Assembly: GCA_036172155.1 (NCBI GenBank)
Contig: JAVHSM010000035.1
Location: 1 to 41,548, forward strand
Direction: 5' to 3'
DNA length: 41,548 nt
Origin: Candidatus Magasanikiibacteriota bacterium
GTDB taxonomy: Bacteria > Patescibacteriota > Patescibacteriia > Magasanikbacterales > GWA2-37-8
Shown: positions 25,299 to 39,862 of the stretch, one piece after another
How the letters are laid out: each line of letters opens with the position of its first letter
How positions within the stretch are numbered: position 1 is the first letter of the stretch
The notes under the pieces: generated by a model
What the model was told of the DNA's origin: nothing
Seen by the model: only the letters and a program-made list of their open reading frames with translations
Databases searched by the model: none
Made by a program: the position numbers and the translations under genes

Positions 25299-25310
25299 CA
25301 AACAAAAAAA

Positions 25311-25336: not shown

Positions 25337-25360
25337 TCTCCTCAGTATATTATTTTATTT

Positions 25361-25908: not shown

Positions 25909-26010
25909 GACTACCTCCAAGCTACCCCGTTGTCGCCGGGGAGCCGATTACCGCTAACCAGTAGGGTGTGCAACCTGCACGCCTTTTGGATTACGGTGGG
26001 GTGTTTGTTT

Positions 26011-26102
26011 GTCATTGCGAGATTCCCGTTTGCACGGGAATGACAAGCGAAGGAATTCCTCGGCGGAGTTTATACTCGCGAAGCGGGTGCTCGGAATGAC
26101 AG
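26011..26102. repeat. Composite of family-A (inverted, GCAA loop) and family-B elements
   Basis: gtcattgcgagattcccgtttgcacgggaatgac (26011-26044), then gcgaaggaattcctcgg...ctcgcgaagcgggtgctcggaatgacag (to 26102). Confidence 0.85.
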
Positions 26103-26282
26103 ACAAACATACCACCATAATCTTTGCGCGGTAGTCAGATATATTTTTCTCTTGGGTTATAATGGCACAGTCGATTTATCTCTTTTTTCAAGAGCAAACC
26201 AACCGCACACATGTCAAAGAACGAACAGCTTGTAATAGCACTATTAAAGGGTTTTGTCAATCTTTGCCATTCAACCCACCAA

Positions 26283-26321
26283 GGGATTCCTCCGCTCGTG
26301 CGAACTCGGTCGGAATGACAG
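26283..26321 (-). repeat. Family-B half element (inverted)
   Basis: gggattcctccgctcgtgcgaactcggtcggaatgacag. Confidence 0.8.
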
Positions 26322-26493
26322 TATAGACAAAATCCTCCTAATTTAAGCTATTATACCTGTATGGTGACATATTTTTTGGTTATGAACAATGGGGGGGTGG
26401 ATAACTTTTTCTGATTAAAAATGTTTATGGGGGTGGTGGTGTTTTTTTGACATTTTGATGTTTTTTTTGTTACAGTGCCTATGTATTAAATTT

Positions 26494-26893
26494 ATGGATA
26501 CAAAATTATTACTCGATTATTGTTTTACAAATTCTGAAAGGAAATTTGCGACCGCTTCGTCATTATTTCGTTCCAAAAAATATTCCGATTGTTTATTTTT
26601 TTTGCCATCTTACTTTAGAATTTTTGTTAAAAGGTAAATACATAGAAATAAGAAAAGAAATGTTTCCAATTATTCATGATTTAGAAAAAATAGCGTTAAA
26701 AATAAATTTGCCATTGGACAAAAGGCAAAAAGAAGTTTTAACTATTATCAACACATTTAATATCGCCGGTCGATATGGTGATTATAAATTATCTTTTTAT
26801 AAACAAGCGGATAAAAAATTTGCCAAGAAATATTTTGAACATACAAAAAAATTAAGGATATGGATAAAAAAATTTGTACCCAAAGACAAGTAA
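26494..26893 (+). pseudogene. HEPN-domain gene interrupted by a +1 frameshift in a T8 run
   Basis: The N-terminal part 'MDTKLLLDYCFTNSERKFATASSLFRSKKYSDCLFF' is in frame 1. The remainder, 'CHLTLEFLLKGKYIE...IIHDLEKIA...AGRYGDYK', is in frame 2. The switch point is the T8 run at 26596-26603; removing one T restores a single ORF. Confidence 0.7.
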
Positions 26894-27250: not shown

Positions 27251-27274
27251 GTCATTCCCGTGAAAACGGGAATC
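27251..27274 (+). repeat. Family-A palindromic element (GAAA loop) in the operon leader
   Basis: gtcattcccgtGAAAacgggaatc, ending 7 nt before the ATG at 27282. Confidence 0.9.
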
Positions 27275-27281: not shown

Positions 27282-30200
27282 ATGTTCTCAATTTTAAAAC
27301 AGAGAACAATCGCGTTATATCATTTTGTCAGAGCACGCCAAAAGCTTGTTGGTAGTTTTTGTTTTTTGTTTTTTGTTTTTTTGGCGGTGTATTTTGTGGC
27401 TGATGTGCATGTTGCGCAAGCGCAAGCGGCTGCTGCGGCTACTACGGCTGCTACGGTTGAACCAGGTGTGTTTATTCACGCGGTGGTGTCTATTCTGTTG
27501 TATGTCGCGCAATTCTTTTTGAAGATAGCGATGTTTACTTTGAATTTTATCATTGAGGTGGCTGGCTATAATGGATTTTTGAGTTCTTCAGCGGTGAGTA
27601 TCGGCTGGGTGATGGTGCGCGATATCACCAATATGTTTTTTGTGATTATTTTGTTGTTGGTAGCTTTTGGCACGATTTTGGGGTTGGAACAATATGAATG
27701 GAAAAAAATGCTGGTCAAATTCTTCTTCGCCGCGATACTGGTGAATTTTAGCCGAGTGATTTGTGGTTTGATTATTGATGTCGGCCAAGTAGTGATGATT
27801 ACATTTGTGAACGGCGTCGCCGCTACCGCGGGTGGTAATATGATTAACGCTTTTGGTTTGTCAGATTTTAATAAACTCTCTGCCGATGTGAAGGCGCAAG
27901 ATAGTACCGATCCAAGCAATATAGTCGTGGCCGCGATAAGCGCGGTGGTGTTTTCCGGTTTGACTATGGCTATCATGTTGTCGTTTCTGTTTATTTTGGT
28001 GGCTAGAATGATTGTCTTGTGGGTTTTGATTATTTTGTCGCCGTTTGCTTTTGTGCTGAGTGTGATTCCGCAAACGCAAAAATACGCTTCGCAATGGTGG
28101 TCTGAATTTGGTAACCATGTGGTGGTCGGACCGGCGCTGATGTTTTTTCTGTGGTTATCTTTTGCGGTGGTAGGGGGCGGACATATCAATGATGAAATTA
28201 GCGGTGCTAGTCAAGTACCAAAAGCACAGCAAATGAATGAGACTGACAACGGTGGTATTGTTTCGCAGATGAAATGGAACAGCATGGCCAGCTTTGCGAT
28301 CGCGATCGGTATTTTGTTGGTTGGTGCCAAGACCGCCCAGTCACTGGGCACTCAGGGTGGTAGCGCAATGAGCAAAGCCACAGATTTTGCCAAGAAGACG
28401 GCGATGGTGGCATCGGGTGCCAGCGCGGCAATGTGGTTGGGGAGAAAAGGGGCGGAGGGGTTGAAAGCGGGAGCCAAAGGCGCCGGCAAATTGGCCTATA
28501 TGGGTACTTTGGAAAATAGCGTGGAAAGAGTGAAAAATTTTGGACAGCGCCAGCTGGAAGGTTATCGGGCTTTTCGTGTGGCTGGGCCTAGGGCAGTGAT
28601 GGAAACGGTAGAAGCAAAAGATGAAAAAGGCAAAGTTGTATATGAAAAAGACGCAAACGGGAAAGTTGTAATTGATGAAAAAACCGGTCAGGCGAAAGCA
28701 AAGATGGAGACTAGACAAAAAAAATATGAAAATGGTGAATTGATGTGGCAAGAACGCACCGGTCCTTTGAGTAAGATTGGAAGCGGCTATCGCAAAGTAT
28801 TGGCTTCGCAAAAAATGTTAGAAAAAGTAAAAGAACAAAAAGAGACCAGAGAGGAATTGATAAAATCTCGTGCCGGTGTGGTACCAAAATATCTTATGCA
28901 AAAATTGGAAGGACCAGGTATTAGAGATTTAGAAAGAATGGAGAAAGGGCAATTAGCGGCGGAAAAAGAAAGATCAGCGGCCAAAACTTCTGAGATGGAA
29001 GCGATAGGACGCCAGCAAGTATTGTCATCCAAACGTTATAAGGCCGGAAAATGGCAAAATGAAAATCCGTCTGTTGGTGCACAAATCGCCCAGCACAAAG
29101 AAAGAGCCGCCGCTACCGAAGAGGGCATAAAAAGTTTATTTGAGGCGGCTAAAGCTTCTTATTTGGAAACCAGTGCTGGTAAAAAAGTTTTGAATGCTAA
29201 AGTGGCGGCGAGTTTGAAAATTGCTCGCGATGAGTCCCATATTAAAACGACTGAGGGTGAGTCAAGACGCAAGTTTATGCGTAAAGACCCAGTAGGACAA
29301 GCTATTTTACAAGAAAAATCCAAATGGGATGCTAGAGGAAAACGTGGAGAGTCTTTGACTAAAACGGCTGAAGAAAAGGCAAGAGCTGAATTTGCCAAAG
29401 GGTCAGAAGGTAAACAGTGGCTGGCGGAACAAAAATCTGGCGAACTGCAAACAAAAGTATATGCAGGGGATATTGCTGCTTTGGAAGCTGAGGCTGAAAA
29501 GAAAGTAACTGACTTACAGCCAGATCTTGTGTCACAATTAAATATTAGTGAACAAGCCAAAAAAGCAGCCGAAGATTTTATCAAGACCTTAAAAGAAAAA
29601 GATTTGCAAGGAAGCTTTGAAAAAGCCGCTGAACGCATGCGAGACATTTTAAAAACAAAAGATAAGGGTGAGATGGCCAAGAAGCTGAAGGCAGCCGAGG
29701 AAGAGAATCCATATATTATGGCCATGACCGAAGGCCAAAGATTGAAAACATCCACCGACGCTTCCAGTATTAGAAAAAAACAAGCCGAACAAGCGGCCAA
29801 AAATGTGGCAATTTCCAAACCAAAATATGGTACTACTACCGCCTCGACTGCTTTGTCCGATTATTCCGAGGGAAAAATGAAAGAGTACCGACAATTGGAG
29901 CGTTCAGCTGCTATGCGCAAAGCCACCGAAGTATATGTAGAATTAATGGCACAAAAAGATGCTCATAATAATGGTGAAGAAGGGGCTGCTGCTTTGGATA
30001 TCGATCAAGAAGCCGAACTATTCGCGGCGAGTAGTTTGTTGTCAGAAGAAGCATGGCAAGATGATCAACATGATTATGTTACTTCAATGTTGCAGGACTT
30101 AAAAGATGGAAAGATGAATGATAAAGATGGAAATATAACCTCTGATGGAAAAAAATGGGAAGTGGCTGCCAAAAATTTTGGTAAATTGGGTTGGTTGGGG

Positions 30201-31589
30201 GAAAAAGCTAAGGATGGTGAAATAAAAGATAACAATGGAAAATATAATTTTGAAGTTGATAGAAACTATGATCGAAGAAGTGCAGCTGATTTGCAAAATT
30301 TAGCTGCGAGTGGTATGGATGTAGATTTGGTGGTGGCCCACAAAAAAATTGCTCAGAGAAAAGAAGAAAATGAAATCATAGTTCAAGAGGAATCTATACG
30401 TATAAAAGATGATGCTTTGTCAAAAGCATCAAAAGATAAAACAGTGATGGGGCGAGAACCGGTGGCTGATAAAATAAATCTTGCTCGAAATCAAGCTACT
30501 GATTCAGCTGCGCGTTTAAAATTAACTGGAGTTGAAGCTGCCAATTATATTAACGCAGCCGTAAAGGAAGCTACCGAATCTGCAATTTTGGCTGAAAAAG
30601 ATATTGCCCAATCAATAGCTGAACGAATAAAAACAGTAGAGAATGATAATACTACTGATTATTGGCAGTTGGCTGATGATGTTTTGTCTAAAAGTAATAT
30701 CACAGGATTGTCGTCAGCCGCAGATATGGAGGCCAGATATGCAAAATCCGAAGATTTTATGCAAGATGCTGTCAAATCCAATAGGAAAAATGCCGTTGCC
30801 ACTGGACATGAAGAATTGGGTTATAATCAGGATTATGATTCCGGCAGAGGTGTTTATCGTTTTACAACTTTCGCCGAGGGACAAGCTGGTATGCGCGCGG
30901 AGCGTGTGAAACAAAAGCGTCAACAATTGGTTGGTACCGATCAGTATCATAGTAATGGTACTTTGGCCCAAAAACAGGGAATTATCGATGATTTTAATGA
31001 AGGCGCTATTTCTCTCAGTACCGGCGGTGTTACCAAAGATATCCAACTCAACAGTATGCCTGAGCGTTCCTTAAAAGCTGGCCACTATATACATAAAAAT
31101 GAAGACGCACAGGTTATAACTGGAAAAGACGGCGGACGATATGCGGTAGTGGGAGGATCTGCAGCTTTGGAAAAATTTGCGGAAGATGGTGATACTACTC
31201 AGGAACAAGTTCAGCAACATATGTTAACGCGTGGTGTTTTGGCAGAATTAATGGCTGGTGAAATAGGTTATTCCATGGTTGGTTGTAAACTCTATCAGCA
31301 CACTTCTGAAGCGGAAGCTCAACAGGGTATAATTAATTTAGATATTGCCGGTTTACAGGTTAAAACCGTGAAAGAATTGGCTGGAAAGTTATTAGAAAGA
31401 ATTAATAATGATCCAAAATATTTGGCTAAATCAAAATATAAAAATCAGCAAGCGCGTGTAGTAAAAAAATTAACACAAATTATGAATTCTGTTTATAGAA
31501 CTGCCAATGACAGAAATAAAAAAGAGAACAAAAGCGCGGATAATAAAGCCGCAGAAGAAGCAATAGCTCTAGGAGTTATTCCAGGTTAG
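27282..31589 (+). CDS. VirB6/TrbL-like polytopic membrane protein fused to a ~1000-aa K/E/A-rich (coiled-coil-like) region
   Basis: The N-terminal ~330 aa carry at least 6 hydrophobic helices, e.g. ITNMFFVIILLLVAFGTILG, FFFAAILVNFSRVICGLIIDVGQVV, AIMLSFLFILVARMIVLWVLIILSPFAFVL and VVVGPALMFFLWLSFAVVG. The rest is charged and low in complexity. The T4SS context supports the call. Confidence 0.55.
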   Translation: MFSILKQRTIALYHFVRARQKLVGSFCFLFFVFLAVYFVADVHVAQAQAAAAATTAATVEPGVFIHAVVSILLYVAQFFLKIAMFTLNFIIEVAGYNGFLSSSAVSIGWVMVRDITNMFFVIILLLVAFGTILGLEQYEWKKMLVKFFFAAILVNFSRVICGLIIDVGQVVMITFVNGVAATAGGNMINAFGLSDFNKLSADVKAQDSTDPSNIVVAAISAVVFSGLTMAIMLSFLFILVARMIVLWVLIILSPFAFVLSVIPQTQKYASQWWSEFGNHVVVGPALMFFLWLSFAVVGGGHINDEISGASQVPKAQQMNETDNGGIVSQMKWNSMASFAIAIGILLVGAKTAQSLGTQGGSAMSKATDFAKKTAMVASGASAAMWLGRKGAEGLKAGAKGAGKLAYMGTLENSVERVKNFGQRQLEGYRAFRVAGPRAVMETVEAKDEKGKVVYEKDANGKVVIDEKTGQAKAKMETRQKKYENGELMWQERTGPLSKIGSGYRKVLASQKMLEKVKEQKETREELIKSRAGVVPKYLMQKLEGPGIRDLERMEKGQLAAEKERSAAKTSEMEAIGRQQVLSSKRYKAGKWQNENPSVGAQIAQHKERAAATEEGIKSLFEAAKASYLETSAGKKVLNAKVAASLKIARDESHIKTTEGESRRKFMRKDPVGQAILQEKSKWDARGKRGESLTKTAEEKARAEFAKGSEGKQWLAEQKSGELQTKVYAGDIAALEAEAEKKVTDLQPDLVSQLNISEQAKKAAEDFIKTLKEKDLQGSFEKAAERMRDILKTKDKGEMAKKLKAAEEENPYIMAMTEGQRLKTSTDASSIRKKQAEQAAKNVAISKPKYGTTTASTALSDYSEGKMKEYRQLERSAAMRKATEVYVELMAQKDAHNNGEEGAAALDIDQEAELFAASSLLSEEAWQDDQHDYVTSMLQDLKDGKMNDKDGNITSDGKKWEVAAKNFGKLGWLGEKAKDGEIKDNNGKYNFEVDRNYDRRSAADLQNLAASGMDVDLVVAHKKIAQRKEENEIIVQEESIRIKDDALSKASKDKTVMGREPVADKINLARNQATDSAARLKLTGVEAANYINAAVKEATESAILAEKDIAQSIAERIKTVENDNTTDYWQLADDVLSKSNITGLSSAADMEARYAKSEDFMQDAVKSNRKNAVATGHEELGYNQDYDSGRGVYRFTTFAEGQAGMRAERVKQKRQQLVGTDQYHSNGTLAQKQGIIDDFNEGAISLSTGGVTKDIQLNSMPERSLKAGHYIHKNEDAQVITGKDGGRYAVVGGSAALEKFAEDGDTTQEQVQQHMLTRGVLAELMAGEIGYSMVGCKLYQHTSEAEAQQGIINLDIAGLQVKTVKELAGKLLERINNDPKYLAKSKYKNQQARVVKKLTQIMNSVYRTANDRNKKENKSADNKAAEEAIALGVIPG

Positions 31590-31607
31590 ATTTATTAAAA
31601 TATAGTT

Positions 31608-32960
31608 ATGTTGTTTAAGGCGTTACAATCTATCACCGACTATCGTTTGCAAAATATCACGATGTTTAGACAATCTATTTTGTCATTGAAGGATTTAACT
31701 TTGAAATTTGGTTATAACAGTAGTGATGATAAATTTTCTATTTGGCGCGGCATTTTGTCTTTGGCTGACGAGCTAGATTTTTTGTCCGGCGACGAACTAG
31801 CCGAAGAACAAAAAAAATTCCAAGAAAATATAATTTTATTTATTGACAATGATCTGCTGTTGTCTTTGCAAACCAAAATGCAAGGGTTGGATAGTAGTGC
31901 CCAAAACATTAGTCAGTTGAGTGAATTGGATGTCGTTAATACTCAATTAAGTTTGCAGTTGGAGTATGTTTGTACCATTTTGAATTTATTCAAAAAATCA
32001 GGAGTCATTTATAGCTCAGAGGAATTGTTTACGGCCATGACCAATACCACTAGTGTCGAAAATAAATTTAGAATACTAAATACGTTGGTATATTTATTGA
32101 ATGATGATGAAATTCGCCAGGCTGCCCGTTTTGAACTGCCAAAGTTTTTAACAATGGAAGAAAATATTCAACAAAAGTTATATACTTGGGAGGAAGCGGT
32201 TACATTATTTTTGGTGCTTGCCATTGTTGTCAAAGAATTTTCTCACCTGTCTGAATTTAAGCAATATTTTGTTGTGAAGAATTATTTTTACCATTCGTTG
32301 GTATTGGGTGTACCTATTGTCAAAGTGGTCGAATCAGCCTTATCCGAAACGAGAAATATTTTATCTTATGTTGATAAAAATTTAATTTTGCTGAATGCGT
32401 TTGTAAAAAATCAAGAACATATATTGACCGGCAAAAATTTGGAAACTCAGGCCGGCCTAGCCGATTTATTAAATAAATATATTGGTCAAAATTTATCGGA
32501 ACCGGAAAGTGAAACAAATGTTACGAAATTTTTGGAAGAATATTATATTGATGCGAAAGATAAAAATTTGTATGTGAATTGGTTAAAATCATTTTTTTCT
32601 ACATATTTTCATTTAGCGCAAGCCAATTTGATCGACAATAATACCGGCGGTCAATTGAATGAAAAAGAAATTGCGGAGAACGAATTGATCAGATTATGCA
32701 CTTTTTTCGCTCTTGGCCAGATTGGATTTGATGAGATTATACAATATTATCAACAACAGAATGAAATCAATGTTCCGTTGACAAGATTCATCACAAAATT
32801 AAGAGAGTTGGCCGATCTTAAAGATCAAAGTGTAGCCGATGATTTGTTAGTGTTAACTGCCGCTTTGCATGAGAATGGAATTTTATTAGACAACAACGAA
32901 CTGATTGAGTTTCACGAATCCGACAACAAATTTCATTGGAATGAAGATTATCTAAAATAA
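31608..32960 (+). CDS. Hypothetical soluble protein, paralog A (450 aa) of the T4SS-like operon
   Basis: No TM or signal peptide. Clearly alignable to the next ORF (LYTWEEAVTLFLVLAIVVKEF / LYFWEEALEFNLMLHIIWKNF, and others). Confidence 0.7.
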   Translation: MLFKALQSITDYRLQNITMFRQSILSLKDLTLKFGYNSSDDKFSIWRGILSLADELDFLSGDELAEEQKKFQENIILFIDNDLLLSLQTKMQGLDSSAQNISQLSELDVVNTQLSLQLEYVCTILNLFKKSGVIYSSEELFTAMTNTTSVENKFRILNTLVYLLNDDEIRQAARFELPKFLTMEENIQQKLYTWEEAVTLFLVLAIVVKEFSHLSEFKQYFVVKNYFYHSLVLGVPIVKVVESALSETRNILSYVDKNLILLNAFVKNQEHILTGKNLETQAGLADLLNKYIGQNLSEPESETNVTKFLEEYYIDAKDKNLYVNWLKSFFSTYFHLAQANLIDNNTGGQLNEKEIAENELIRLCTFFALGQIGFDEIIQYYQQQNEINVPLTRFITKLRELADLKDQSVADDLLVLTAALHENGILLDNNELIEFHESDNKFHWNEDYLK

Positions 32961-32961
32961 T

Positions 32962-33996
32962 ATGCCAGAAGAAATTATCGTGCCGGCTTCAACTGAAGCG
33001 ACTGATAACGAGTCGGTACAAAACAATTTATATTTTTACCGTTTGGAAAATTGGGATGAGGTGAAAAAATCTCTCAATCTTTTGATTGAAAATGAAGATC
33101 TGTTGTTGCAAAGCAACGATGCAATCATTGATAAGATGTTTAATTTTGCCAGTCCGCTATTTTTGAATGGAACATTTTATGAAGCTAGCAATGTCTTTGA
33201 TGCCGCCGATATCGCTTCTGCTAGTTTTTTGTCTCCATTACTCATAAAAGAATTTATCAAAAATCCAACGGATAAAATATTATGCGATCGGTTGGTGGTA
33301 CATTTGTCTTTGGCGGGGGCGGCGACACAAAATATGCCCAAACCTGATTTTAAACCATACAATCTAAGCGAAATGATCAAAATTTTGGTGGATGGCAATA
33401 AAGATATTTATAATAATGTTACTTTTTTATATACATTGAGAATTATACTCGATTCAGAAGGCCCAGATGATAGAGCGGCGGCTGTTTTTAGTACTTTTGA
33501 ACCGCTTGATACCACCGTCGAGGAACCAACTCTTTATTTTTGGGAAGAAGCTTTGGAATTTAACCTGATGTTGCATATAATTTGGAAAAATTTTGTTTTG
33601 TTTGGAACACAGCAACAAGAAATTATTTTGAAAAATTATCTTTTTTCGGCGATTGTGGCTGGTGTGCCGGTGGAATATTGGCTCAAAGAGATTTTGACTG
33701 CGGATGTAGAAGGTTTTGATAACGAAAAAGCTAATTCCTTTTTTCTCAAAACGATTGAAAATAGCAACGAGCGTATTCCGACCAATACAGTAACCGAGGA
33801 ATCGCGTAAATTGATGGAAATATTGCCGGAATATATCGGAAAAATTTTTAGCGGTGATATCAAGACTTTGACCCAAGAAAAATTTATTGAAGATTTTTAT
33901 AAAGGACAGGTGGCTGAAAAAAAATTCAGCGAATGGCTTCGCAATTTATTGCAATTGTATTATAATTTAAGAAACGGAACATATTTGCGCAAATAA
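32962..33996 (+). CDS. Hypothetical soluble protein, paralog B (344 aa)
   Basis: Start is 1 nt after the upstream stop (TAAtATG). Paralogous to 31608-32960. Confidence 0.7.
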   Translation: MPEEIIVPASTEATDNESVQNNLYFYRLENWDEVKKSLNLLIENEDLLLQSNDAIIDKMFNFASPLFLNGTFYEASNVFDAADIASASFLSPLLIKEFIKNPTDKILCDRLVVHLSLAGAATQNMPKPDFKPYNLSEMIKILVDGNKDIYNNVTFLYTLRIILDSEGPDDRAAAVFSTFEPLDTTVEEPTLYFWEEALEFNLMLHIIWKNFVLFGTQQQEIILKNYLFSAIVAGVPVEYWLKEILTADVEGFDNEKANSFFLKTIENSNERIPTNTVTEESRKLMEILPEYIGKIFSGDIKTLTQEKFIEDFYKGQVAEKKFSEWLRNLLQLYYNLRNGTYLRK

Positions 33997-33997
33997 T

Positions 33998-35251
33998 ATG
34001 GACGATCAAGTCGCACAACCGACAATTTTGGTAAAAAAATCCGATGGTACGACCGAACGGATTACTTTGGCTGAACTAAAAGCGCGTCAGGCTGGGGCGC
34101 AGACAGTACCGGTTGTACCTGTGATTGCACCTGTCATTCCGAGCCGTGCCGAGGAATCCCTTGGAATTGCTTCGTCGCCTACTGTATCGCAGGCTCCTCG
34201 CAATGACATCGAGAAACCACATGGTTTAGTAGTTGGTCCGCATGAAAAAAAAATAATAATGCCAACGCTGGTGATGCCAAAGCCGTTGGAAATTGTCATT
34301 CCGAGTAAGGTCGAGGAATCCCTTGATAAATTAAGAGATTCCTCCACTACACTGCGTTCCGGTCGGAATGACAGTGAAAAACCGTTGTTACACGAAGAAG
34401 TTCCGGAAAGTCCGCACGCGCAAACCACCACTGTACCGACTCGTTTGGATCAGGCGGATAAAATTATTTTTGGTTTGTCATTCAAAGTGCCGGCGCAATT
34501 TTCCAATCGTTTGCGCAGTGCTATTCAGTTGCGCCTGAAAGATATTCGCAGTGAAGCGGACACCAAAGATCTATGTTTGCGTTCCATAAAGGATGGGGGA
34601 TTGGGATTGACCGAGACTCAGGCACAGGAAGTAGTGATCAAAGCCAAACCAATGGCGATGGAAATAAAAATAAAAGACAAAGACCAATTTGATTTGCCGG
34701 CAAAAATTGAATTATCACCGGCGCCGGTTGTACCGATGCAAAAAATAAGTCAGGAAGTAAGCAATAAAGAAGCGGTGGTAGATAAAATTATTGGCCAAGG
34801 TTCTTCAATGTCGGCTCCGACTATCGCCGATCTGTTACCGTCTAAACCGGTGCCAGTCAGTGCGATGCCTGCTCCGGCTCGAATGCCGACTTCGGTATCA
34901 TCTCAAAAAATACAAATGCACGATATGAAAGCCAAACCGGCCGCGCTTGGTCCGCTCGATGAAATACAATATTTTTCTTTGATTGATCTGCGTCGTTTGT
35001 CATTTCAGGCCAGTGAAGCGGTTAGCCGTTTGAAACAAAAATTTGTCAATCTGAAAGAAGAATCGTTTTTATTGTTTATTGATTCGTGGAGCGCTTGGCG
35101 CAACAGTGGACTATATCAAAGTTATATGGAGGCGGTAGATTCCGCATTGGTGCAAAAGCGCCGTTTGGTTTCGGTGGTGGGAGAAAAAGAAAAAATTTCT
35201 TTGGCGGAAATTGAGGCGGTAATAAAAATGGAAAAAGAATTAGAAATTTAA
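33998..35251 (+). CDS. Hypothetical 417-aa protein carrying two in-frame palindromic-repeat insertions
   Basis: TAAtATG coupling to the upstream gene. Contains 'VIPSRAEESLGIASSPTVSQAPRNDI' and 'VIPSKVEESLDKLRDSSTTLRSGRNDS', which are translated repeat elements. No family recognised. Confidence 0.65.
   Translation: MDDQVAQPTILVKKSDGTTERITLAELKARQAGAQTVPVVPVIAPVIPSRAEESLGIASSPTVSQAPRNDIEKPHGLVVGPHEKKIIMPTLVMPKPLEIVIPSKVEESLDKLRDSSTTLRSGRNDSEKPLLHEEVPESPHAQTTTVPTRLDQADKIIFGLSFKVPAQFSNRLRSAIQLRLKDIRSEADTKDLCLRSIKDGGLGLTETQAQEVVIKAKPMAMEIKIKDKDQFDLPAKIELSPAPVVPMQKISQEVSNKEAVVDKIIGQGSSMSAPTIADLLPSKPVPVSAMPAPARMPTSVSSQKIQMHDMKAKPAALGPLDEIQYFSLIDLRRLSFQASEAVSRLKQKFVNLKEESFLLFIDSWSAWRNSGLYQSYMEAVDSALVQKRRLVSVVGEKEKISLAEIEAVIKMEKELEI
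34133..34207 (+). repeat. Composite family-B element (75 nt) inside a CDS
   Basis: gtcattccgagccgtgccgaggaatccc...gctcctcgcaatgac. Confidence 0.85.
34295..34372 (+). repeat. Composite family-B element (78 nt) inside a CDS
   Basis: gtcattccgagtaaggtcgaggaatccc...gattcctcc...ggtcggaatgac. Confidence 0.85.
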
Positions 35252-35252
35252 T

Positions 35253-35681
35253 ATGGATCAATTTGTAGTACCGCAATTTATCGATGTGGAAGACAAAATT
35301 TTCGGACCGGTGACGGCCCGCCAATTTATTATTTTGCTGGTGGCCGGCTTGGTGTTGTTTATCGCTTACAAATTGGTTGATACTACTTTATTTATTTTTC
35401 TATTAGCGATAATCGGTGGGTCGGCTCTGGTATTGGCCTTTGTGAAAATTAATGGTCAATCATTTCATTATTTCTTGTTGAATTTGATCCAGACATTGCG
35501 TCGTCCCAGTCGTCGGATCTGGTATAAGAGTGAAGATAAAGCCGAATTGGAGGAACTGCGCAAAGGTGAGAAAGTAGTGTTGATTGAAAAAGTAGCCGAG
35601 GTGCCGCGTTTGTCTTATAATCGTATTCGTGATCTATCATTAGCGGTAAATACCGGTGGTTATTATAAACCAGAGGTGTAA
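35253..35681 (+). CDS. PrgI-family (VirB3-like) small T4SS membrane protein
   Basis: 'VPQFIDVEDKIFGPVTARQFIILLVAGLVLF' matches the PrgI-family N-terminal signature. Two hydrophobic helices. TAAtATG coupling to the upstream gene. Confidence 0.75.
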   Translation: MDQFVVPQFIDVEDKIFGPVTARQFIILLVAGLVLFIAYKLVDTTLFIFLLAIIGGSALVLAFVKINGQSFHYFLLNLIQTLRRPSRRIWYKSEDKAELEELRKGEKVVLIEKVAEVPRLSYNRIRDLSLAVNTGGYYKPEV

Positions 35682-35692
35682 TACCATTTATT

Positions 35693-35797
35693 GTCATTCT
35701 GAGTGAAACGAAGAATCTCTTAAAGTTTGGTTAGAGGGATCCTTCGTTTCACTCAGGATGACGGTAAATAATAGATTCCCGTTTGCACGGGAATGAC
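35693..35797. repeat. 70-nt composite family-B hairpin plus an inverted family-A element
   Basis: gtcattctgagtgaaacgaagaatctct...agagggatccttcgtttcactcaggatgac (35693-35762). gattcccgtttgcacgggaatgac (35774-35797). Confidence 0.9.
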
Positions 35798-35806
35798 ATA
35801 TAAAGT

Positions 35807-36490
35807 ATGAAAAACAAACAAGCCGCCGCCAAAAAATCCGCCATTCCTGTTGCTCAGCGATTTTTGGGTGTGGCGGAAATCAAGCAAGACACACTGGTGA
35901 TGAAAGACGGTACGATGCGGGCTATCCTGATGGTGTCCAGTATCAATTTTTCGTTAAAAAATGAAGACGAACAAAATGCTATTATTTCTTCGTATGTCAG
36001 TTTTCTCAACGCTATTGACCATCCTTTACAAGTGGTGATTCAATCGCGTGAGCTGTATATCAAACCCTATCTGCAAGATTTACAAAAACGCGAGCGTGAA
36101 CAGACCAATGAATTGTTACGAGCGCAAATCGCTGATTACCGATCGTTTATTACCGAATTAGTGGAGATGGGAGAAATTATGAGCAAAAATTTTTATGTGG
36201 TAGTGCCGTATGATCCGCTTTCCAACAAACAAAAAAGTTTTTGGTCGCGCGCGACCGAAGCTTTCAATCCGATAGTAACAGTGAAATTGAAAGGTGAACG
36301 ATTTGCTCAGCGAAAATTCGATTTGGAACAGCGTTTGCGCCAAGTCGAATCCGGTTTGCGCAGTATTGGTTTGGAGGTAGTGCGCCTAGACACGCAATCA
36401 CTAGTCGAAGTGTTGTATTCTACCTACAATCCGGACATTGCTTTGACAGAGCGTTTGTCGCCGCTTAACGATATGCAATTAGAACAATAA
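35807..36490 (+). CDS. T4SS-locus protein, candidate detached N-terminal domain of VirB4
   Basis: 227 aa, in the same reading frame as the downstream ATPase and separated from it only by TAA+TTT. 'VAEIKQDTLVMKDGTMRAILMVSSINFSLKNEDEQ' resembles the start of long VirB4/TrsE proteins, judged from memory rather than by search. Confidence 0.5.
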   Translation: MKNKQAAAKKSAIPVAQRFLGVAEIKQDTLVMKDGTMRAILMVSSINFSLKNEDEQNAIISSYVSFLNAIDHPLQVVIQSRELYIKPYLQDLQKREREQTNELLRAQIADYRSFITELVEMGEIMSKNFYVVVPYDPLSNKQKSFWSRATEAFNPIVTVKLKGERFAQRKFDLEQRLRQVESGLRSIGLEVVRLDTQSLVEVLYSTYNPDIALTERLSPLNDMQLEQ

Positions 36491-36493
36491 TTT

Positions 36494-38362
36494 ATGGCTT
36501 TCAAACCACTATTTGGCCAAGGTAAAGCGGTAAGTGCTTCTCTTTTGGAAAAAGAAAAGAGTGAGTTAGAAAAGACTTCCGCGCAAGAAATAATCAGCCT
36601 CGAAGAAGAGCGGGTCTATCGCGAAGGGGTAGTATCGCTCAAAGATATTATCGCGCCGTCAGCGTTGAATATTGAATCCAATTTTATTCAGTTGGGTACG
36701 ACTTTTTGTCGCACGATTTTTATCATGAGTTATCCGCGTTATATTTCGATTGGCTGGAGTTCGCCGATTATAAATCTGTCGGTCAATATGGATATCGCCA
36801 TGTTTTTTTATCCGATTAAGGCGGCGATTATTTTGAAACAATTAAAAAATAAAGTGGGCGCGCTTGAAGCCCAGATCAACGCCGATGCCGAAAAAGGCGC
36901 GCCGCGTGATCCGGTGCGCGAGACGGCTTTGCGTGATGTGGAGGAATTGCGTGACAATCTTACTCAAGGTACAGAACATTTTTTTCAATTTGCTTTTTAT
37001 GTCACGGTTTATACCAAGAGTAAAGAAAAACTGGATCAGCTATCGGAAGATATTGAAAGTATTTTTGGTAGTAAATTGATTTTGAGTCGTAAAGTTCTTT
37101 ATCAGGCCGAGCAAGGTTTTAATTCTACTTTACCGCTGTGTAATGATGAGTTGATGATCGCGTACAATATGAACTCTTCGCCGATTGCCGCGTCTTTTCC
37201 TTTTATTTCCGCCGAGCTTACTTCGGACAACGGTATTTTGTATGGCATCAATCGCCACAACAACAGTTTGATTTTGTTCGATCGTTTTTCGATGCAAAAT
37301 GCCAACATGGTAGTATTTGCGACATCCGGTGCCGGTAAAAGTTACGCGATCAAATTGGAAATTTTGCGTTCGATGATGATGGGTATTGATGTGATCGTGA
37401 TTGATCCGGAAATGGAATACAAACATCTGTCCGACGCGGTGGGCGGTACCTATATCAATATTTCGCTATCATCGGAAAGTAAGGTAAACCCGTTTGATTT
37501 ACCGCGTCCGACCGGCCAAGAAATGGCTGTTGATGATATTATTCGCAGTGCGGTGATTACCGTGAAGGGGTTGTTGCGTATAATGCTAGGCGGAATTTCC
37601 ACGGAGGAAGATTCGATTATCGACAGGGCATTGATTGAAACTTATGCCAAAAAAGATATTACGCCGGATGCGGATTTGACTACGGCTCAGCCGCCGATAA
37701 TGCAGGATTTGCAAGAGGTACTCGAAGGGATGGAAGGTGCCGGTCAGCTGGTGCTAAAATTAAAAAAATATACCGAGGGTACATTCAGCGGGTTGTTCAA
37801 TTCGCCAACCAATGTGGAGATAAAAAATCAGCTAGTAGTGTATAGTGTGCGCGACCTAGAAGATGAGTTGCGGCCGTTGGCTATATATGCCATTATTAAC
37901 TATATCTGGAATGTGGTGCGTTCGGAGCGCAAAAAAAGAATTTTGGTGATTGATGAAGCTTGGTGGCTGATGCAACACGAAGATTCCGCTCGTTTTATTT
38001 TTGCGTTGGTGAAACGCTGTCGCAAATATTTCTTGGGCGTCACGACTATTACTCAGGATGTCAACGACTTTTTACATTCGCAATACGGGCAGGCGATCGT
38101 GACCAATTCGGCTCTGCAATTATTGTTGCGTCAGTCATCGGCGGCCGTGGAAAATGTCCAAAAAATATTTATGTTGACGGATAGTGAAAAATATTTATTG
38201 TTGGAAAGCGGCCCAGGTGAAGGAATATTTTTTGCCGGATTAAAACATGCGGCCATAAAAGTAGTAGCCTCATATACCGAAGATCAGCTGGTGACCACCA
38301 ACCCACAACAGTTGTTGGAGATTGAACGCGCCAAAAAAGAATTTGAAAAACAAACTCAATAA
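36494..38362 (+). CDS. virB4: VirB4/TrsE/PrgJ-type T4SS ATPase
   Basis: Walker A 'ATSGAGKSYA' (~37321-37350) and Walker B 'RILVIDEAWWLM' (~37940-37975). 'GVTTITQD'. Position directly after the PrgI-like gene. Confidence 0.85.
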   Translation: MAFKPLFGQGKAVSASLLEKEKSELEKTSAQEIISLEEERVYREGVVSLKDIIAPSALNIESNFIQLGTTFCRTIFIMSYPRYISIGWSSPIINLSVNMDIAMFFYPIKAAIILKQLKNKVGALEAQINADAEKGAPRDPVRETALRDVEELRDNLTQGTEHFFQFAFYVTVYTKSKEKLDQLSEDIESIFGSKLILSRKVLYQAEQGFNSTLPLCNDELMIAYNMNSSPIAASFPFISAELTSDNGILYGINRHNNSLILFDRFSMQNANMVVFATSGAGKSYAIKLEILRSMMMGIDVIVIDPEMEYKHLSDAVGGTYINISLSSESKVNPFDLPRPTGQEMAVDDIIRSAVITVKGLLRIMLGGISTEEDSIIDRALIETYAKKDITPDADLTTAQPPIMQDLQEVLEGMEGAGQLVLKLKKYTEGTFSGLFNSPTNVEIKNQLVVYSVRDLEDELRPLAIYAIINYIWNVVRSERKKRILVIDEAWWLMQHEDSARFIFALVKRCRKYFLGVTTITQDVNDFLHSQYGQAIVTNSALQLLLRQSSAAVENVQKIFMLTDSEKYLLLESGPGEGIFFAGLKHAAIKVVASYTEDQLVTTNPQQLLEIERAKKEFEKQTQ

Positions 38363-38379
38363 TTTTTTAATATATTTTT

Positions 38380-38985
38380 ATGATTTCATTGCGCGCCAGA
38401 ATATTTATTATCGTTAGCCTGATAATTTTGATTGTTTTGAGTATTAGTATTTTTTTGTGGATCAGATCTCGACCGCCGGTCGCGCCGAATTATTTGGAAA
38501 ATCCGCCAACAGTGGTGGGTGGTGATGTGGGTAGTATTCCGGCGTCGGTAGCGCCGACACCGCTGACAGCCATTCCAAGTAATGTGAAAGTAATACCGGC
38601 CACAGCTGTGGAAGTACAGCAGAATGCCGCGCAACAATTGGCCAAAATTTTTGTGGAAAGATTAAATAGTTATTCTACCGAAAGTCAATTTCAAAATGTG
38701 CGTGATGTGCAGGAGTTGGTGACAGTTGGCTACTGGAAAGAATTAAGTATGAAAATTGGTGTGGCTAACACCTCACCGTCCACCGTTCCGTTTGCTTCGG
38801 CAATTACCAAAATTTACAGCACAAAATTGGTGGCATGGAGTAACAATAATGCTGTTGTGGAATTTCAAGCAAAAGTTGGTGAAGAAAAAAATAATATCGT
38901 TTCAACTCGTGATCAGGGTGGCAAAGTCACTCTCGTTAAAAGCGGAGAAAATTGGTTGGTGGATAAATTTGAGTGGGTGAAATAA
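38380..38985 (+). CDS. Bitopic membrane protein, possible PrgL/VirB8-like T4SS component
   Basis: N-terminal TM helix (IFIIVSLIILIVLSISIFLWI) plus a ~150-aa extracytoplasmic domain. Size, topology and position after virB4 match PrgL/VirB8-like proteins. No motif-level proof. Confidence 0.4.
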   Translation: MISLRARIFIIVSLIILIVLSISIFLWIRSRPPVAPNYLENPPTVVGGDVGSIPASVAPTPLTAIPSNVKVIPATAVEVQQNAAQQLAKIFVERLNSYSTESQFQNVRDVQELVTVGYWKELSMKIGVANTSPSTVPFASAITKIYSTKLVAWSNNNAVVEFQAKVGEEKNNIVSTRDQGGKVTLVKSGENWLVDKFEWVK

Positions 38986-39010: not shown

Positions 39011-39099
39011 GTCATTCCGATGTCATCCTGATCCGCCAAAGGCGGAGAAGAATCCCTTAGTGGCGAACATAAGGGATTCTTCATTTCATTCAGAATGAC
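39011..39099. repeat. Partial end plus a composite family-B hairpin
   Basis: gtcattccga (39011-39020). gtcatcctgatccgccaaaggcggagaagaatccctta...taagggattcttcatttcattcagaatgac (39022-39099). Confidence 0.9.
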
Positions 39100-39133: not shown

Positions 39134-39862
39134 ATGAGTTTAAGGAGGGGAATAATTGAAAATATAAAAAATTATCTTTTTCCGGTATTTTGTTTGCAGT
39201 GCCAAAAAGAAGGACAATGGTGGTGTGAAAAATGTATTGACGCATTGGAAAATGTCGGAGTGTTTTATTGTCCGGTTTGTCATCTAAAAAATTCTTCCGG
39301 TACACCTTGTCAGAGGTGCCAGTCCGCGACTGCCTTAAACGGTGTCGCGGCTTTTTTTGATTACAATGAAAAAGCCATTGTTGGACAATTAATTCGCCAG
39401 TTCAAATATAATTTTGCTTACGATATTGTCGATGTTTGGAAAGAAATTATTGATAAATATTTGTTGAAGATTATTGAGGTGCAAAAAATAAATGCCGGTA
39501 TTTTTATGGTGATACCCGTGTCTTTGCATCGGTCGCGCTATCGCCGGCGTGGTTTTAATCAAGCGGAGTTGATCGCCGAATTGTTGTATACAAAATTAAA
39601 AGAAATATATCCGCTAACAAGTTTTGAAAAAAATAGTTTGATTCGTGAAAAACCAACCAAACAGCAAGCCAAATTAAATCGCGCCGATCGTTTAAAAAAT
39701 TTGCAAAACGCGTTTGGGTGGCAATCTACTTATCCTCCCGGTAAAAATATTATATTGGTGGATGATGTCTATACCAGTGGTGCGACTATGCAAGAATGCG
39801 CAAAAATATTAAAACGCGCCGGTGCGCAAAAAGTTTTCGGTCTTACCTTGGCGCGCGATTGA
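39134..39862 (+). CDS. comFC: ComF-family protein (ComFC, PRTase-like competence protein)
   Basis: N-terminal Cys clusters (CLQC...CEKC, CPVC...CQRC). PRTase motif 'ILVDDVYTSGATM'. 'GFNQAELIA'. Confidence 0.85.
   Translation: MSLRRGIIENIKNYLFPVFCLQCQKEGQWWCEKCIDALENVGVFYCPVCHLKNSSGTPCQRCQSATALNGVAAFFDYNEKAIVGQLIRQFKYNFAYDIVDVWKEIIDKYLLKIIEVQKINAGIFMVIPVSLHRSRYRRRGFNQAELIAELLYTKLKEIYPLTSFEKNSLIREKPTKQQAKLNRADRLKNLQNAFGWQSTYPPGKNIILVDDVYTSGATMQECAKILKRAGAQKVFGLTLARD

What the first reader, a model, noticed from the sequence alone, without database searches (positions are those of the whole stretch)
27282..38985. Minimal T4SS-like operon without relaxase, coupling protein or hydrolase, carrying three unknown mid-operon genes
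Eight co-directional, near-contiguous ORFs run in this order:
1. VirB6/TrbL-like giant (1435 aa)
2. Two paralogous soluble unknowns (450 and 344 aa)
3. A 417-aa unknown
4. PrgI/VirB3-like protein (142 aa)
5. A 227-aa ORF
6. VirB4 ATPase (622 aa)
7. A bitopic ~200-aa protein

The order VirB6-like ... PrgI-like, VirB4, small bitopic protein mirrors prgH-prgI-prgJ-(prgK)-prgL of Gram-positive conjugative T4SSs.

Nothing in this window looks like a relaxase, a VirD4/FtsK-type coupling ATPase, VirB11, a VirB1/CHAP-type wall hydrolase, an integrase or an oriT. About 1200 codons in the middle of the operon have no recognisable family.

The locus is embedded among giant surface proteins and an RHS toxin. 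I read it as a candidate non-conjugative, T4SS-derived envelope machine of an ultrasmall bacterium, used for host-cell interaction or macromolecule import or export, with lineage-specific components.
Basis: partly seen in the sequence, partly recalled or inferred. Interest (0 to 1): 0.8.

Follow-up and report, generated by a model that had tools for sequence, protein, structure and literature searches.

The report
Chromosomal type IV secretion operon, Magasanikbacteria
This is a real, intact type IV secretion gene cluster of an ultrasmall Patescibacteria bacterium that lacks the parts needed for plasmid transfer; this kind of system was already described in 2023-2025, so the locus is a new example of it, and its only new content is two widespread unnamed component families.

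Summary
VirB4 (NCBIfam CD1110 family, 1.9e-107) and PrgI/VirB3 (Pfam, 7.8e-12) pass curated cut-offs. The unnamed 227-aa ORF is a TrsD-type separate VirB4 N-domain. The 201-aa bitopic protein has a VirB8/PrgL-like predicted fold. VirB6 is supported only weakly by sequence. The 450/344 pair are true paralogs of a fast-evolving family, and the 417-aa protein belongs to a large unannotated family (about 2,500 clusters).

The operon really ends with ComF(C) at 39134-39862: ComF follows directly in 63 of 65 related loci. The order VirB6-like, variable genes, 417-like, PrgI, TrsD, VirB4, VirB8-like, ComF recurs in 80 species-level genomes of class ABY1, among housekeeping genes. The window has no relaxase, coupling protein, hydrolase, integrase or tRNA.

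Wang 2023 (Cell) and Quinonero-Coronel 2025 (Microb Genom) describe this relaxase-less chromosomal Patescibacteria T4SS, including TrsD and the ABY1 comF linkage. Verdict: new member of a known kind. The substrate is unknown; I favour nucleic-acid handling (about 0.35) slightly over effector export (about 0.3).

The parts
17034..25178 (+). 2714-aa secreted, Cys-rich giant protein (Sec signal peptide, 126 Cys). It is a recurrent upstream neighbour of the operon and a possible surface adhesin; whether it belongs to the system is uncertain.
   Evidence: No Pfam hit. Signal peptide and composition. A homolog lies directly upstream of the VirB6-like gene in 16 of 40 related loci that have at least 1.5 kb of upstream sequence.
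27282..31589 (+). Extended VirB6/TrbL-like protein, 1435 aa. Polytopic N-domain (aa 1-390, nt 27282-28451) followed by a K/E/A-rich tail of about 1045 aa. The tail is probably cytoplasmic (inferred from the net +6 charge just after the last TM helix).
   Evidence: NF046089 CD3337/EF1877, 9.7e-5, below cut-off. 10 of 28 orthologous N-domains hit Pfam TrbL (best 6e-6) and 5 of 28 hit CD3337/EF1877, with no other family matched. About 7-8 hydrophobic segments. N-domain 58% identical to L001; the tail is conserved only in some relatives.
31608..32960 (+). Variable-slot family, paralog A (450 aa). Soluble, no signal peptide, no known domain.
   Evidence: Paralogous to the next ORF, E = 7e-15. An iterative HMM unites the genes at this position in 58 loci. 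Undetectable by BLAST in relatives whose VirB4 is 92% identical. No Pfam hit in 32 members and no PDB sequence hit.
32962..33996 (+). Variable-slot family, paralog B (344 aa).
33998..35251 (+). Conserved '417 family' component. Soluble, with three small folded modules (aa 8-32, 150-215, 319-415) joined by disordered linkers. Always located immediately upstream of the PrgI gene. This copy carries two in-frame palindromic-repeat insertions (34133-34158, 34295-34320).
   Evidence: Present in 79 of 83 loci. 2,495 representatives at E <= 1e-3 in the exhaustive profile search, nearly all full-length matches. AF2 model with module pLDDT above 90. No Foldseek PDB match, no Pfam hit, no PDB sequence hit. 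Same position in the distant loci L084 and L086.
35253..35681 (+). PrgI/VirB3-like small membrane protein (142 aa, two TM segments).
   Evidence: Pfam PrgI, 7.8e-12, above the gathering score. TM segments. 84% identical to L001.
35686..35804 (.). Two palindromic repeat elements that fill the operon's only long intergenic gap (125 nt). They form strong hairpins in the transcript.
   Evidence: Inverted repeats. RNA fold -61.5 kcal/mol, z = -10. Relatives have a median PrgI-to-TrsD gap of 14 nt, so this is an insertion.
35807..36490 (+). TrsD/TraD-type protein (227 aa): the VirB4 N-terminal domain encoded as a separate gene.
   Evidence: NF041427 TrsD, 4.8e-9. It matches the N-terminal part of three VirB4 models (Mbov_0397 positions 110-233, CD1110 positions 19-168, Pfam TraC_F_IV positions 17-180). 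A separate gene in all relatives, where the reading-frame relation to VirB4 is random (33/24/21).
36494..38362 (+). VirB4 ATPase lacking its N-domain (622 aa). Walker A ATSGAGKS is at nt 37319-37342 and Walker B ILVIDE at nt 37940-37957.
   Evidence: CD1110 family, 1.9e-107, above cut-off, covering profile positions 174-728 of 752. 71-93% identity across the retrieved homologs and loci. Both motifs intact and invariant.
38380..38985 (+). VirB8/PrgL-like bitopic protein (201 aa): TM helix at aa 4-29, a disordered linker, and an NTF2-like domain at aa 76-199 (nt 38605-38976).
   Evidence: AF2 mean pLDDT 82, domain above 90. Foldseek PDB top hits: CagV 1.5e-5, PrgL 1.8e-5, TraH of pIP501, TcpC, Rickettsia VirB8, TrwG of R388. 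No sequence-level family. Present in 73 of 83 loci.
39134..39862 (+). ComF(C)-type protein (242 aa): double zinc ribbon plus a phosphoribosyltransferase-like domain. It is the last gene of the conserved operon. In this window a repeat insertion (39075-39099) separates it from the preceding gene.
   Evidence: TIGR00201 comF, 1.2e-32 (below cut-off); Pfam Pribosyltran and DZR_2. Directly downstream in 63 of 65 loci with coverage, median gap 3 nt.

Best explanation
The locus is the chromosomal, Patescibacteria-clade type IV secretion system of a Candidatus Magasanikbacteria (class ABY1) bacterium. It derives from the conjugation machinery of monoderm bacteria (MPF-FATA type) but is no longer a conjugation module.

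Shown here:
- A nine-gene operon encodes an extended VirB6-like polytopic membrane protein, two copies of a fast-evolving soluble family, and a conserved soluble protein with three small modules on disordered linkers.
- It then encodes PrgI/VirB3, a VirB4 split into TrsD plus an ATPase with intact Walker motifs, a bitopic VirB8-like protein, and ComFC.

Inferred:
- VirB6, PrgI and VirB8-like form a channel across the single membrane.
- The TrsD/VirB4 hexamer docks on PrgI and powers translocation.
- The long VirB6 tail, the 417-family protein and the slot proteins form a lineage-specific cytoplasmic platform that replaces the missing coupling protein.
- The machine acts at the contact with a host cell.

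Most likely substrate (about 0.35, by association only): nucleic acid moved in concert with ComFC. ComFC is operonic in 63 of 65 relatives, and RadA and RecG lie next to the operon in some ABY1 loci. This would make it functionally closer to the Helicobacter ComB or archaeal Ced DNA-import systems than to a conjugative exporter.

The confidence of 0.85 applies to the identity and architecture, not to the substrate.
For: Identity:
- VirB4 CD1110 family above cut-off, PrgI above the gathering score, and TrsD tiling the VirB4 N-domain.
- VirB8-like fold.
- VirB6 family-level hits only to TrbL and CD3337/EF1877.

Lineage and conservation:
- The nearest VirB4 homologs are 80-93% identical and all Patescibacteria.
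- 80 species-representative loci share the gene order.

Not conjugative, chromosomal:
- No relaxase, T4CP, hydrolase or integrase domains and no tRNA in the window.
- Housekeeping flanks here and in relatives.

Functional, not decaying:
- Walker A and B are invariant.

Nucleic-acid link:
- ComF adjacency in 63 of 65 loci, median gap 3 nt.
- RadA and RecG downstream in L084, and RecG among the recurrent neighbours.

Literature:
- The same system, TrsD, the lack of relaxase and the ABY1 comF/recG/radA linkage are described in PMC12102498.
- T4SS genes are essential for epibiotic growth in Southlakia (PMC10633639).
Against: - The VirB6 assignment for this copy is below curated cut-offs, and a family profile finds no solved VirB6.
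- The VirB8 assignment is structural only. NTF2-like folds are common, and non-T4SS proteins (CaMKII hub, ARC6) also score.
- No VirB2-like pilin or wall hydrolase is in the window, although the Southlakia locus has both.
- Against the nucleic-acid substrate: in Southlakia, deleting comEC abolishes competence but not growth, while the T4SS genes are essential (PMC12857230). The ComF match is below the TIGR00201 cut-off. The linkage is specific to ABY1, and gene adjacency is not mechanism.
- The rest of this genome is unseen, so a distant T4CP cannot be excluded.
Confidence: 0.85

Rival explanations
1. It is the same Patescibacteria-type T4SS, but it exports proteins. It would deliver effector proteins into or onto the host cell. 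The hypervariable slot-family proteins (450/344 here, replaced by different versions in close relatives) would be the effectors or effector adaptors, and ComF would be linked only by co-regulation.
For: - The slot position evolves far faster than the machine. It is undetectable by BLAST between genomes whose VirB4 is 92% identical, it is duplicated here, and an unrelated ~700-aa family accompanies it in the closest relatives.
- There is no relaxase or T4CP, which Wang 2023 took to suggest protein export.
- The Southlakia T4SS is essential independently of ComEC.
Against: - The slot proteins have no signal peptide and no recognisable toxin or enzyme domain.
- No immunity-like partner gene is evident.
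- T4SS effector export normally needs a T4CP, with a few known exceptions.
- The near-universal operonic ComF is left unexplained.
Confidence: 0.3
2. It is an ordinary conjugative ICE or plasmid transfer module whose relaxase, coupling protein, hydrolase and integrase lie off the contig.
For: - The VirB4 best hit is a conjugative-element family (CD1110).
- The contig is only 41.5 kb and is the whole window, so the distant genome is unseen.
Against: - 27 kb upstream and 2.5 kb downstream carry housekeeping and surface-protein genes, with no mobile-element genes and no tRNA.
- The same cassette is vertically conserved, with 71-93% VirB4 identity across 80 species, in differing housekeeping contexts including contigs of 0.4-1.5 Mb.
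- Published survey: relaxases are near virB4 in only 15 cases among 2,474 patescibacterial virB4 genes.
Confidence: 0.04
3. It is a decaying remnant: a split VirB4 and repeat-riddled genes indicate a pseudogenised, non-functional cluster.
For: - The VirB4 N-domain and the ATPase are in frame, separated by a single TAA.
- Palindromic repeats are inserted in the intergenic gaps and in frame inside the 417-aa ORF.
Against: - The TrsD/VirB4 split is universal in relatives, with random frame relations, so it is an old two-gene arrangement. It is also known from pGO1-type systems.
- All ORFs are intact and the Walker motifs are invariant.
- The repeat insertions preserve the reading frame and fall in a predicted disordered linker.
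Confidence: 0.02

Closest known systems
Patescibacteria-clade T4SS as surveyed by Quinonero-Coronel et al. 2025 (PMC12102498), ABY1-class arrangement
   Same: - VirB4 related to MPF-FATA, with a separate TrsD next to it.
- PrgI/VirB3 and a VirB6-like protein present.
- VirB8 homologs detectable mainly in class ABY1.
- Chromosomal location with no relaxase nearby.
- comF (and recG/radA) co-located in ABY1.
All of these are reproduced here.
   Different: Nothing essential differs. Additions from this analysis:
- The grey 'unknown' genes between VirB6 and PrgI resolve into two families, a conserved one with about 2,500 clusters and a hypervariable one.
- A Cys-rich giant protein recurs upstream.
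- No VirB2-like pilin gene lies within this 41.5-kb contig.
Southlakia epibionticum ML1 T4SS, SEML1_0006-0019 (Wang et al. 2023, PMC10633639)
   Same: - Same backbone and order: an extended VirB6-like protein, then PrgI, a ~290-aa TrsD-position protein and VirB4.
- An NTF2-like protein is also present in that locus.
- No relaxase or coupling protein in the cluster.
   Different: - Southlakia (class Saccharimonadia) also has six essential VirB2-like pilins, a lysozyme and a peptidase downstream of VirB4, and two VirB6-like or large proteins.
- Its NTF2-like gene lies upstream and is non-essential.
- It has no operonic ComF.
- Function was tested there by Tn-seq; nothing has been tested for this locus.
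Gram-positive conjugative T4SSs: pCF10 prgH-prgI-prgJ-prgK-prgL, pIP501 tra, pGO1/pSK41 trs
   Same: - A minimal monoderm set of VirB6-like, VirB3-like, VirB4 and a bitopic VirB8-like protein in a similar order.
- A TrsD + TrsE-like split of VirB4, as in pGO1.
- Structural match of the 201-aa protein to PrgL, TraH and TcpC.
   Different: This locus has no relaxase or oriT, no T4CP (PcfC/TraJ), no VirB1-type hydrolase (PrgK/TraG), no adhesin of the PrgB type and no plasmid or ICE backbone. It carries extra lineage-specific soluble proteins and ComF.
DNA-uptake T4SS-related systems: Helicobacter pylori ComB (works with ComEC/ComFC) and the archaeal Ced system
   Same: - A T4SS-derived machine without a relaxase, linked to competence-type DNA-handling proteins.
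- ComFC is operonic here. The VirB4 also gives a weak CedB hit of 3e-16, which reflects only the shared ATPase fold.
   Different: - ComB is a diderm VirB2-B10 system, and Ced uses CedA/A1/A2.
- No direct homology exists beyond the VirB4-class ATPase and the generic VirB3/6/8 roles.
- Import has not been shown for any patescibacterial T4SS.

Membership tests
Patescibacteria-clade T4SS (PMC12102498) | VirB4 signature ATPase of MPF-FATA affinity, grouping with Patescibacteria VirB4s | tested here: met
   CD1110 (CTn2-type, MPF-FATA prototype) is the best model, at 360 bits against a cut-off of 325. All named homologs among the top 120 are Patescibacteria or Magasanikbacteria at 80-93% identity. 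No phylogenetic tree was built.
Patescibacteria-clade T4SS (PMC12102498) | TrsD-like protein (remote VirB4 N-domain homolog) encoded next to virB4 | tested here: met
   ORF 35807-36490 matches NF041427 TrsD at 4.8e-9 and the N-terminal parts of VirB4 models. It is adjacent to virB4 in the related loci.
Patescibacteria-clade T4SS (PMC12102498) | VirB3/PrgI homolog near virB4 | tested here: met
   Pfam PrgI, 7.8e-12, above the gathering score.
Patescibacteria-clade T4SS (PMC12102498) | VirB6/TrbL-like polytopic protein near virB4 | tested here: inconclusive
   The window copy gives only NF046089 at 9.7e-5 to 3e-5, below its cut-off. 10 of 28 orthologs hit Pfam TrbL. The topology and gene position fit. 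A family profile against PDB sequences found no VirB6.
Patescibacteria-clade T4SS (PMC12102498) | Chromosomal location without an associated relaxase | tested here: met
   Housekeeping genes on both sides; no relaxase, integrase or tRNA in the 41.5 kb. Relatives have housekeeping flanks.
Patescibacteria-clade T4SS (PMC12102498) | VirB2-like pilin gene or array near virB4 (frequent but not universal) | tested here: not met
   No two-TM small ORF in the window's gaps and no T4SS_pilin Pfam hit. A T4SS_pilin-domain protein is present in the distant relative L084. The rest of this genome is unseen.
Patescibacteria-clade T4SS (PMC12102498) | Required for epibiotic growth on a host | not testable with these tools
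   Shown only for Southlakia by Tn-seq. The organism here is uncultured.
Conjugative MPF-FATA T4SS (pCF10, pIP501, ICE type) | Relaxase and oriT associated with the T4SS | tested here: not met
   No relaxase domain in any ORF of the window.
Conjugative MPF-FATA T4SS (pCF10, pIP501, ICE type) | VirD4/TcpA-type coupling ATPase | tested here: not met
   The only P-loop T4SS ATPase found is VirB4. SXT_TraD matched only marginally (0.024) within VirB4 itself. The genome outside the contig was not testable.
Conjugative MPF-FATA T4SS (pCF10, pIP501, ICE type) | VirB1-type wall hydrolase (SLT/CHAP) in the operon | tested here: not met
   No such domain in the window. VanW/PG-binding proteins recur a few kb downstream in relatives but are not VirB1 homologs.
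Conjugative MPF-FATA T4SS (pCF10, pIP501, ICE type) | Mobile-element backbone (integrase, att repeats, tRNA target, or plasmid replication genes) | tested here: not met
   No tRNA and no integrase or replication domains. The repeats found are short dispersed palindromes, not att sites.
VirB8/PrgL family (for the 201-aa protein) | Bitopic N-terminal TM helix plus a C-terminal NTF2-like domain, encoded in a T4SS operon | tested here: met
   AF2 model. Top Foldseek hits are CagV, PrgL, TraH, TcpC and TrwG at 1.5e-5 to 1e-3, with TM-score against the target of 0.55-0.67. Sequence-level membership is not met: no Pfam, NCBIfam or PDB sequence hit.
ComFC competence protein (for 39134-39862) | N-terminal zinc ribbon plus a PRTase-like domain matching the comF model | tested here: inconclusive
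   TIGR00201, 1.2e-32, covers the full model but scores 113 bits against a cut-off of 233. DZR_2 and Pribosyltran domains are present. DNA binding is not testable here.

The most novel reading that the evidence does not exclude
The ABY1 version of the patescibacterial T4SS is a nucleic-acid import machine. A VirB4-powered channel would take up host DNA or RNA and hand it directly to the operon-encoded ComFC, and on to RadA and RecG. The ~2,500-cluster '417 family' scaffold, the VirB6 tail and the hypervariable slot proteins would form a new kind of cytoplasmic receptor that replaces the coupling protein. The recurrent Cys-rich giant protein would serve as the system's host-binding adhesin.
Probability: 0.2. 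Interest if true: 0.75.

Novelty: new member of a known kind. Interest (0 to 1): 0.3.

Why it matters
Patescibacteria make up a large share of bacterial diversity and depend on host cells. Their T4SS is the only T4SS known to be essential for its owner's growth, and its substrate is unknown.

This locus does not change that picture. It does give a clean ABY1 example and sharpens the parts list:
- a structurally VirB8-like subunit;
- a conserved three-module soluble protein family with about 2,500 clusters and no annotation;
- a hypervariable soluble family at a fixed operon position;
- a near-obligate operonic ComFC.

These are concrete targets for multimer modelling and for genetics in cultivable relatives, to decide whether the machine imports nucleic acids or exports effectors.

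Tried and rejected
- The window's own VirB4 is not on record in the contig index, so the contig could not be extended. The window is the whole contig.
- Profile searches of the 201, 417, slot and VirB6-N families against PDB sequences gave nothing meaningful.
- Member-by-member Pfam scans of the slot and 417 families gave only isolated chance hits.
- An NCBIfam scan of the 201 family found no VirB8 model.
- A Foldseek search of the 417-aa model found no match.
- Promoter and terminator consensus scans were not clearly above shuffled expectation: promoters within 1.1 sd, terminators about 2 sd above.
- Rfam found no matches.
- I tested whether the in-frame TAA between TrsD and VirB4 could mean read-through or a pseudogene. 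I rejected this because the frame relation is random in 78 relatives.
- I tested whether the ~700-aa genes of the closest relatives, or the long Uhrbacteria 417-like proteins, contain the slot domain. No significant match was found.
- My first repeat pattern had the wrong spacer and found nothing. The corrected pattern worked.
- I considered batch-scanning all flanking ORFs of relatives for relaxase and T4CP. I dropped it because the tool lists only the 25 commonest families. Only the ten most recurrent neighbour families were scanned.


Full report
**Observation**

The window contains the eight co-directional ORFs at exactly the reported coordinates: 27282-31589, 31608-32960, 32962-33996, 33998-35251, 35253-35681, 35807-36490, 36494-38362 and 38380-38985. 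The gaps between them are 1-18 nt, apart from one of 125 nt.

Profile searches confirm the two strongest assignments:
- The 622-aa protein is a VirB4-class ATPase. It matches NCBIfam CD1110 VirB4-like at 1.9e-107 (360 bits against a curated cut-off of 325) and Pfam P-loop_TraG at 2.3e-27.
- The 142-aa protein is PrgI/VirB3-like. It matches Pfam PF12666 at 7.8e-12, above the gathering score, and has two hydrophobic segments.

The 450-aa and 344-aa proteins are real paralogs (28% identity over 169 aa, E = 7e-15). Neither these nor the 417-aa protein match any Pfam or NCBIfam family.

No ORF of the window carries a relaxase, VirD4/TcpA, VirB11, SLT/CHAP or integrase domain. The window also has no tRNA gene and no Rfam match.

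**Corrections and additions to the anatomy**

It matches TrsD/TraD (NF041427, 4.8e-9) and the N-terminal parts of three VirB4 models. The 622-aa ATPase matches only positions 174-728 of the 752-position CD1110 model. In this window the two ORFs happen to be in frame, separated by one TAA. In 78 relatives the frame relation is random (33/24/21), so this is an old two-gene arrangement and neither a pseudogene nor a read-through.

2. *The 201-aa bitopic protein is VirB8-like by structure.* The AlphaFold2 model built on 36 homologs has a mean pLDDT of 82, with the folded domain above 90. It shows a TM helix, a disordered linker and an NTF2-like domain. The best PDB matches are CagV (1.5e-5), PrgL of pCF10 (1.8e-5), TraH of pIP501, TcpC, Rickettsia VirB8 and TrwG of R388. 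There is no sequence-level support.

3. *The VirB6 assignment is the weakest.* The window copy matches only the CD3337/EF1877 mobilome membrane protein model, at 9.7e-5 and below cut-off. At family level, 10 of 28 orthologous N-domains hit Pfam TrbL and 5 of 28 hit CD3337/EF1877, and no other family is hit. The N-terminal ~390 aa carry about 7-8 hydrophobic segments. The remaining ~1045 aa form a K/E/A-rich tail whose start is positively charged, so it is probably cytoplasmic; this is an inference.

4. *The operon does not end at 38985.* A ComF(C)-type gene at 39134-39862 (TIGR00201, 1.2e-32; zinc ribbon plus PRTase-like domain) lies directly downstream in 63 of 65 related loci with coverage. 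The median gap there is 3 nt. Here a palindromic repeat insertion widens the gap.

**Lineage and conservation**

The closest VirB4 homologs are 80-93% identical. All that carry a name are Candidatus Magasanikbacteria or Patescibacteria.

A scan of species-representative genomes returned 80 loci from Magasanikbacteria, Uhrbacteria, Falkowbacteria and unnamed Patescibacteria. Together with three loci from long contigs, they share one order:

VirB6-like (744-1900 aa) → 0-3 variable genes → 417-like → PrgI → TrsD → VirB4 → 201-like → ComF

An iterative HMM shows that the variable genes next to the 417-like gene are one fast-evolving family, present in 58 loci. The window's 450/344 pair is a duplication of it. 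The window's closest relatives (VirB4 91-92% identical) carry a copy of this family that BLAST cannot detect, plus an unrelated ~700-aa family.

Identity of each component to its counterpart in the closest long-contig relative, L001:

| Component | Identity to L001 (%) |
|---|---|
| VirB4 | 92 |
| TrsD | 86 |
| PrgI | 84 |
| ComF | 59 |
| VirB6 N-domain | 58 |
| 417 family | 54 |
| VirB8-like | 51 |
| Slot family | none detectable |

The 417 family is large. An exhaustive profile search found 2,495 representatives at 50% clustering, almost all matching over the full length. Its most distant retrievable members again sit immediately upstream of PrgI, TrsD and VirB4.

The 417-aa model has three confident small modules (aa 8-32, 150-215, 319-415) separated by disordered linkers. 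It has no structural neighbour in the PDB.

**Context**

Upstream of the operon are RF-1, Sua5, a GIY-YIG protein, KsgA, an RHS giant and a 2714-aa secreted Cys-rich giant. Downstream are ComF and a polytopic membrane protein.

Beyond the cassette, the flanks of relatives are diverse (237 clusters from 376 ORFs). The recurrent families are housekeeping: VanW/PG-binding, Hsp20, ClpP, EngA, RecG, LytR-CpsA-Psr and SufBD. This is a vertically inherited chromosomal cassette and not an ICE or plasmid module.

The 2714-aa giant has a homolog directly upstream of the VirB6-like gene in 16 of 40 loci with enough upstream sequence.

**Comparison with what is known**

- Wang et al. 2023 (PMC10633639) found an unusual T4SS in the Saccharibacterium Southlakia. 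It resembles Gram-positive conjugative systems but lacks coupling and relaxase proteins, and its genes are essential for epibiotic growth.
- Quinonero-Coronel et al. 2025 (PMC12102498) surveyed Patescibacteria. They described a monophyletic, MPF-FATA-related VirB4 clade. TrsD was the commonest associated component, alongside PrgI/VirB3 and VirB6 homologs, and VirB8 homologs were found almost only in class ABY1. Relaxases were rare, the location chromosomal, and comF, recG and radA were co-located in ABY1.
- A 2025 review lists these systems as new members of the T4SS superfamily (PMC12857230).

This locus meets the sequence-testable features of that kind, apart from a nearby VirB2-like pilin, which is frequent but not universal. 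It fails every feature that defines a conjugative module.

**Mechanism**

*Shown:* the component set, its conservation, intact ATPase motifs (Walker A ATSGAGKS and Walker B ILVIDE, both invariant), and the absence of conjugation genes.

*Inferred from established T4SS biology:* VirB6, VirB3 and VirB8 form the membrane translocon. VirB4, with its N-domain supplied by TrsD, docks on VirB3 and energises the channel. The long VirB6 tail, the 417 protein and the slot proteins all lack signal peptides, so they most plausibly form a cytoplasmic platform in place of the missing coupling protein.

*Substrate:* unknown.
- I slightly favour nucleic-acid handling (about 0.35). ComFC, which established knowledge identifies as an ssDNA-handling competence factor, is operonic in nearly all ABY1 relatives, and RadA and RecG adjoin the operon in some.
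- Effector export (about 0.3) is supported by the hypervariable slot genes, and by the finding that ComEC is dispensable while the T4SS is essential in Southlakia.

**Verdict**

Novelty is limited to a new member of a known kind, with modest added value in the parts list. Interest: 0.3.

Noticed in passing
window 14370-14429, 15053-15076, 25224-26044, 27251-27274, 34133-34320, 35693-35797, 39075-39099, 40408-40847: A family of ~25-nt palindromic hairpin elements (GTCATYCY...RGRATC) occurs 16 times against 0.07 expected by chance. Most copies are intergenic. Two are in frame inside the 417-aa ORF, in a predicted disordered linker, and two are inside the minus-strand 476-aa membrane ORF. Copies fill the PrgI-to-TrsD gap, where they fold at -61.5 kcal/mol (z = -10). 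The element is also present in 14 of 86 related loci.
   Followed up: partly
window 15046-15387 (GIY-YIG ORF) with a repeat at 15053-15076; L007:160-184 next to L007:216-500: A small GIY-YIG nuclease ORF has a copy of the hairpin element at its 5' end. Its homolog in L007 also has one just upstream. The nuclease could be linked to the spread of the repeats. This was not tested.
   Followed up: no
window 17034-25178: A 2714-aa secreted protein with 126 cysteines and no Pfam domain. A homolog lies directly upstream of the VirB6-like gene in 16 of 40 relatives, so it may be a functional partner of the T4SS, such as an adhesin.
   Followed up: partly
window 22-2295, 2305-10587, 10594-10839; L059:13682-21890: A PKD-domain protein is followed by a 2760-aa RHS-repeat protein (13 RHS repeats, DUF6531, CARDB) and an 81-aa ORF that could be its immunity protein. 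A homologous PKD + RHS pair lies just downstream of the T4SS operon in L059.
   Followed up: no
window 25180-26545: About 1.4 kb with no convincing gene, locally GC-rich (0.465) with negative GC skew. It is packed with repeat copies and holds overlapping ORFs on both strands (25492-25920 on the minus strand, with a lipoprotein-like N-terminus; 25553-25957 on the plus strand). It could be a degraded or foreign segment.
   Followed up: no
window 26546-26893: A lone HEPN-domain ORF (Pfam, 5.3e-7) lies between the giant protein and the T4SS operon. No adjacent nucleotidyltransferase partner was recognised, and it is absent from all related loci.
   Followed up: no
L001:4297-6534, L006:4247-6451, L007:4104-6179, L014:2248-4404, L040:3794-6067: A separate ~700-aa family with no Pfam hit sits between the VirB6-like gene and the slot-family gene in the window's closest relatives. 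It is absent from the window. This marks the position as a variable cassette site.
   Followed up: partly
L084:7385-14311: In a distant relative the operon is followed by a 369-aa protein with a weak T4SS_pilin domain, then RadA and a convergent RecG. This fits the published ABY1 link to DNA-recombination genes.
   Followed up: no
record titles of L006, L008, L012, L014-L017, L050 and others: Many species-representative MAGs that carry this Patescibacteria-type operon are titled 'uncultured Gammaproteobacteria bacterium' in the public records; one is titled 'Candidatus Methylomirabilis sp.'. These are probably mislabelled.
   Followed up: no
window 39843-41273 (minus strand): A 476-aa polytopic membrane protein with no Pfam hit is convergent with ComF. 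Homologs of ~525 aa recur at the same position in the 12 relatives listed (cluster of 12). The window copy is shorter at its N-terminus and carries repeat insertions.
   Followed up: no
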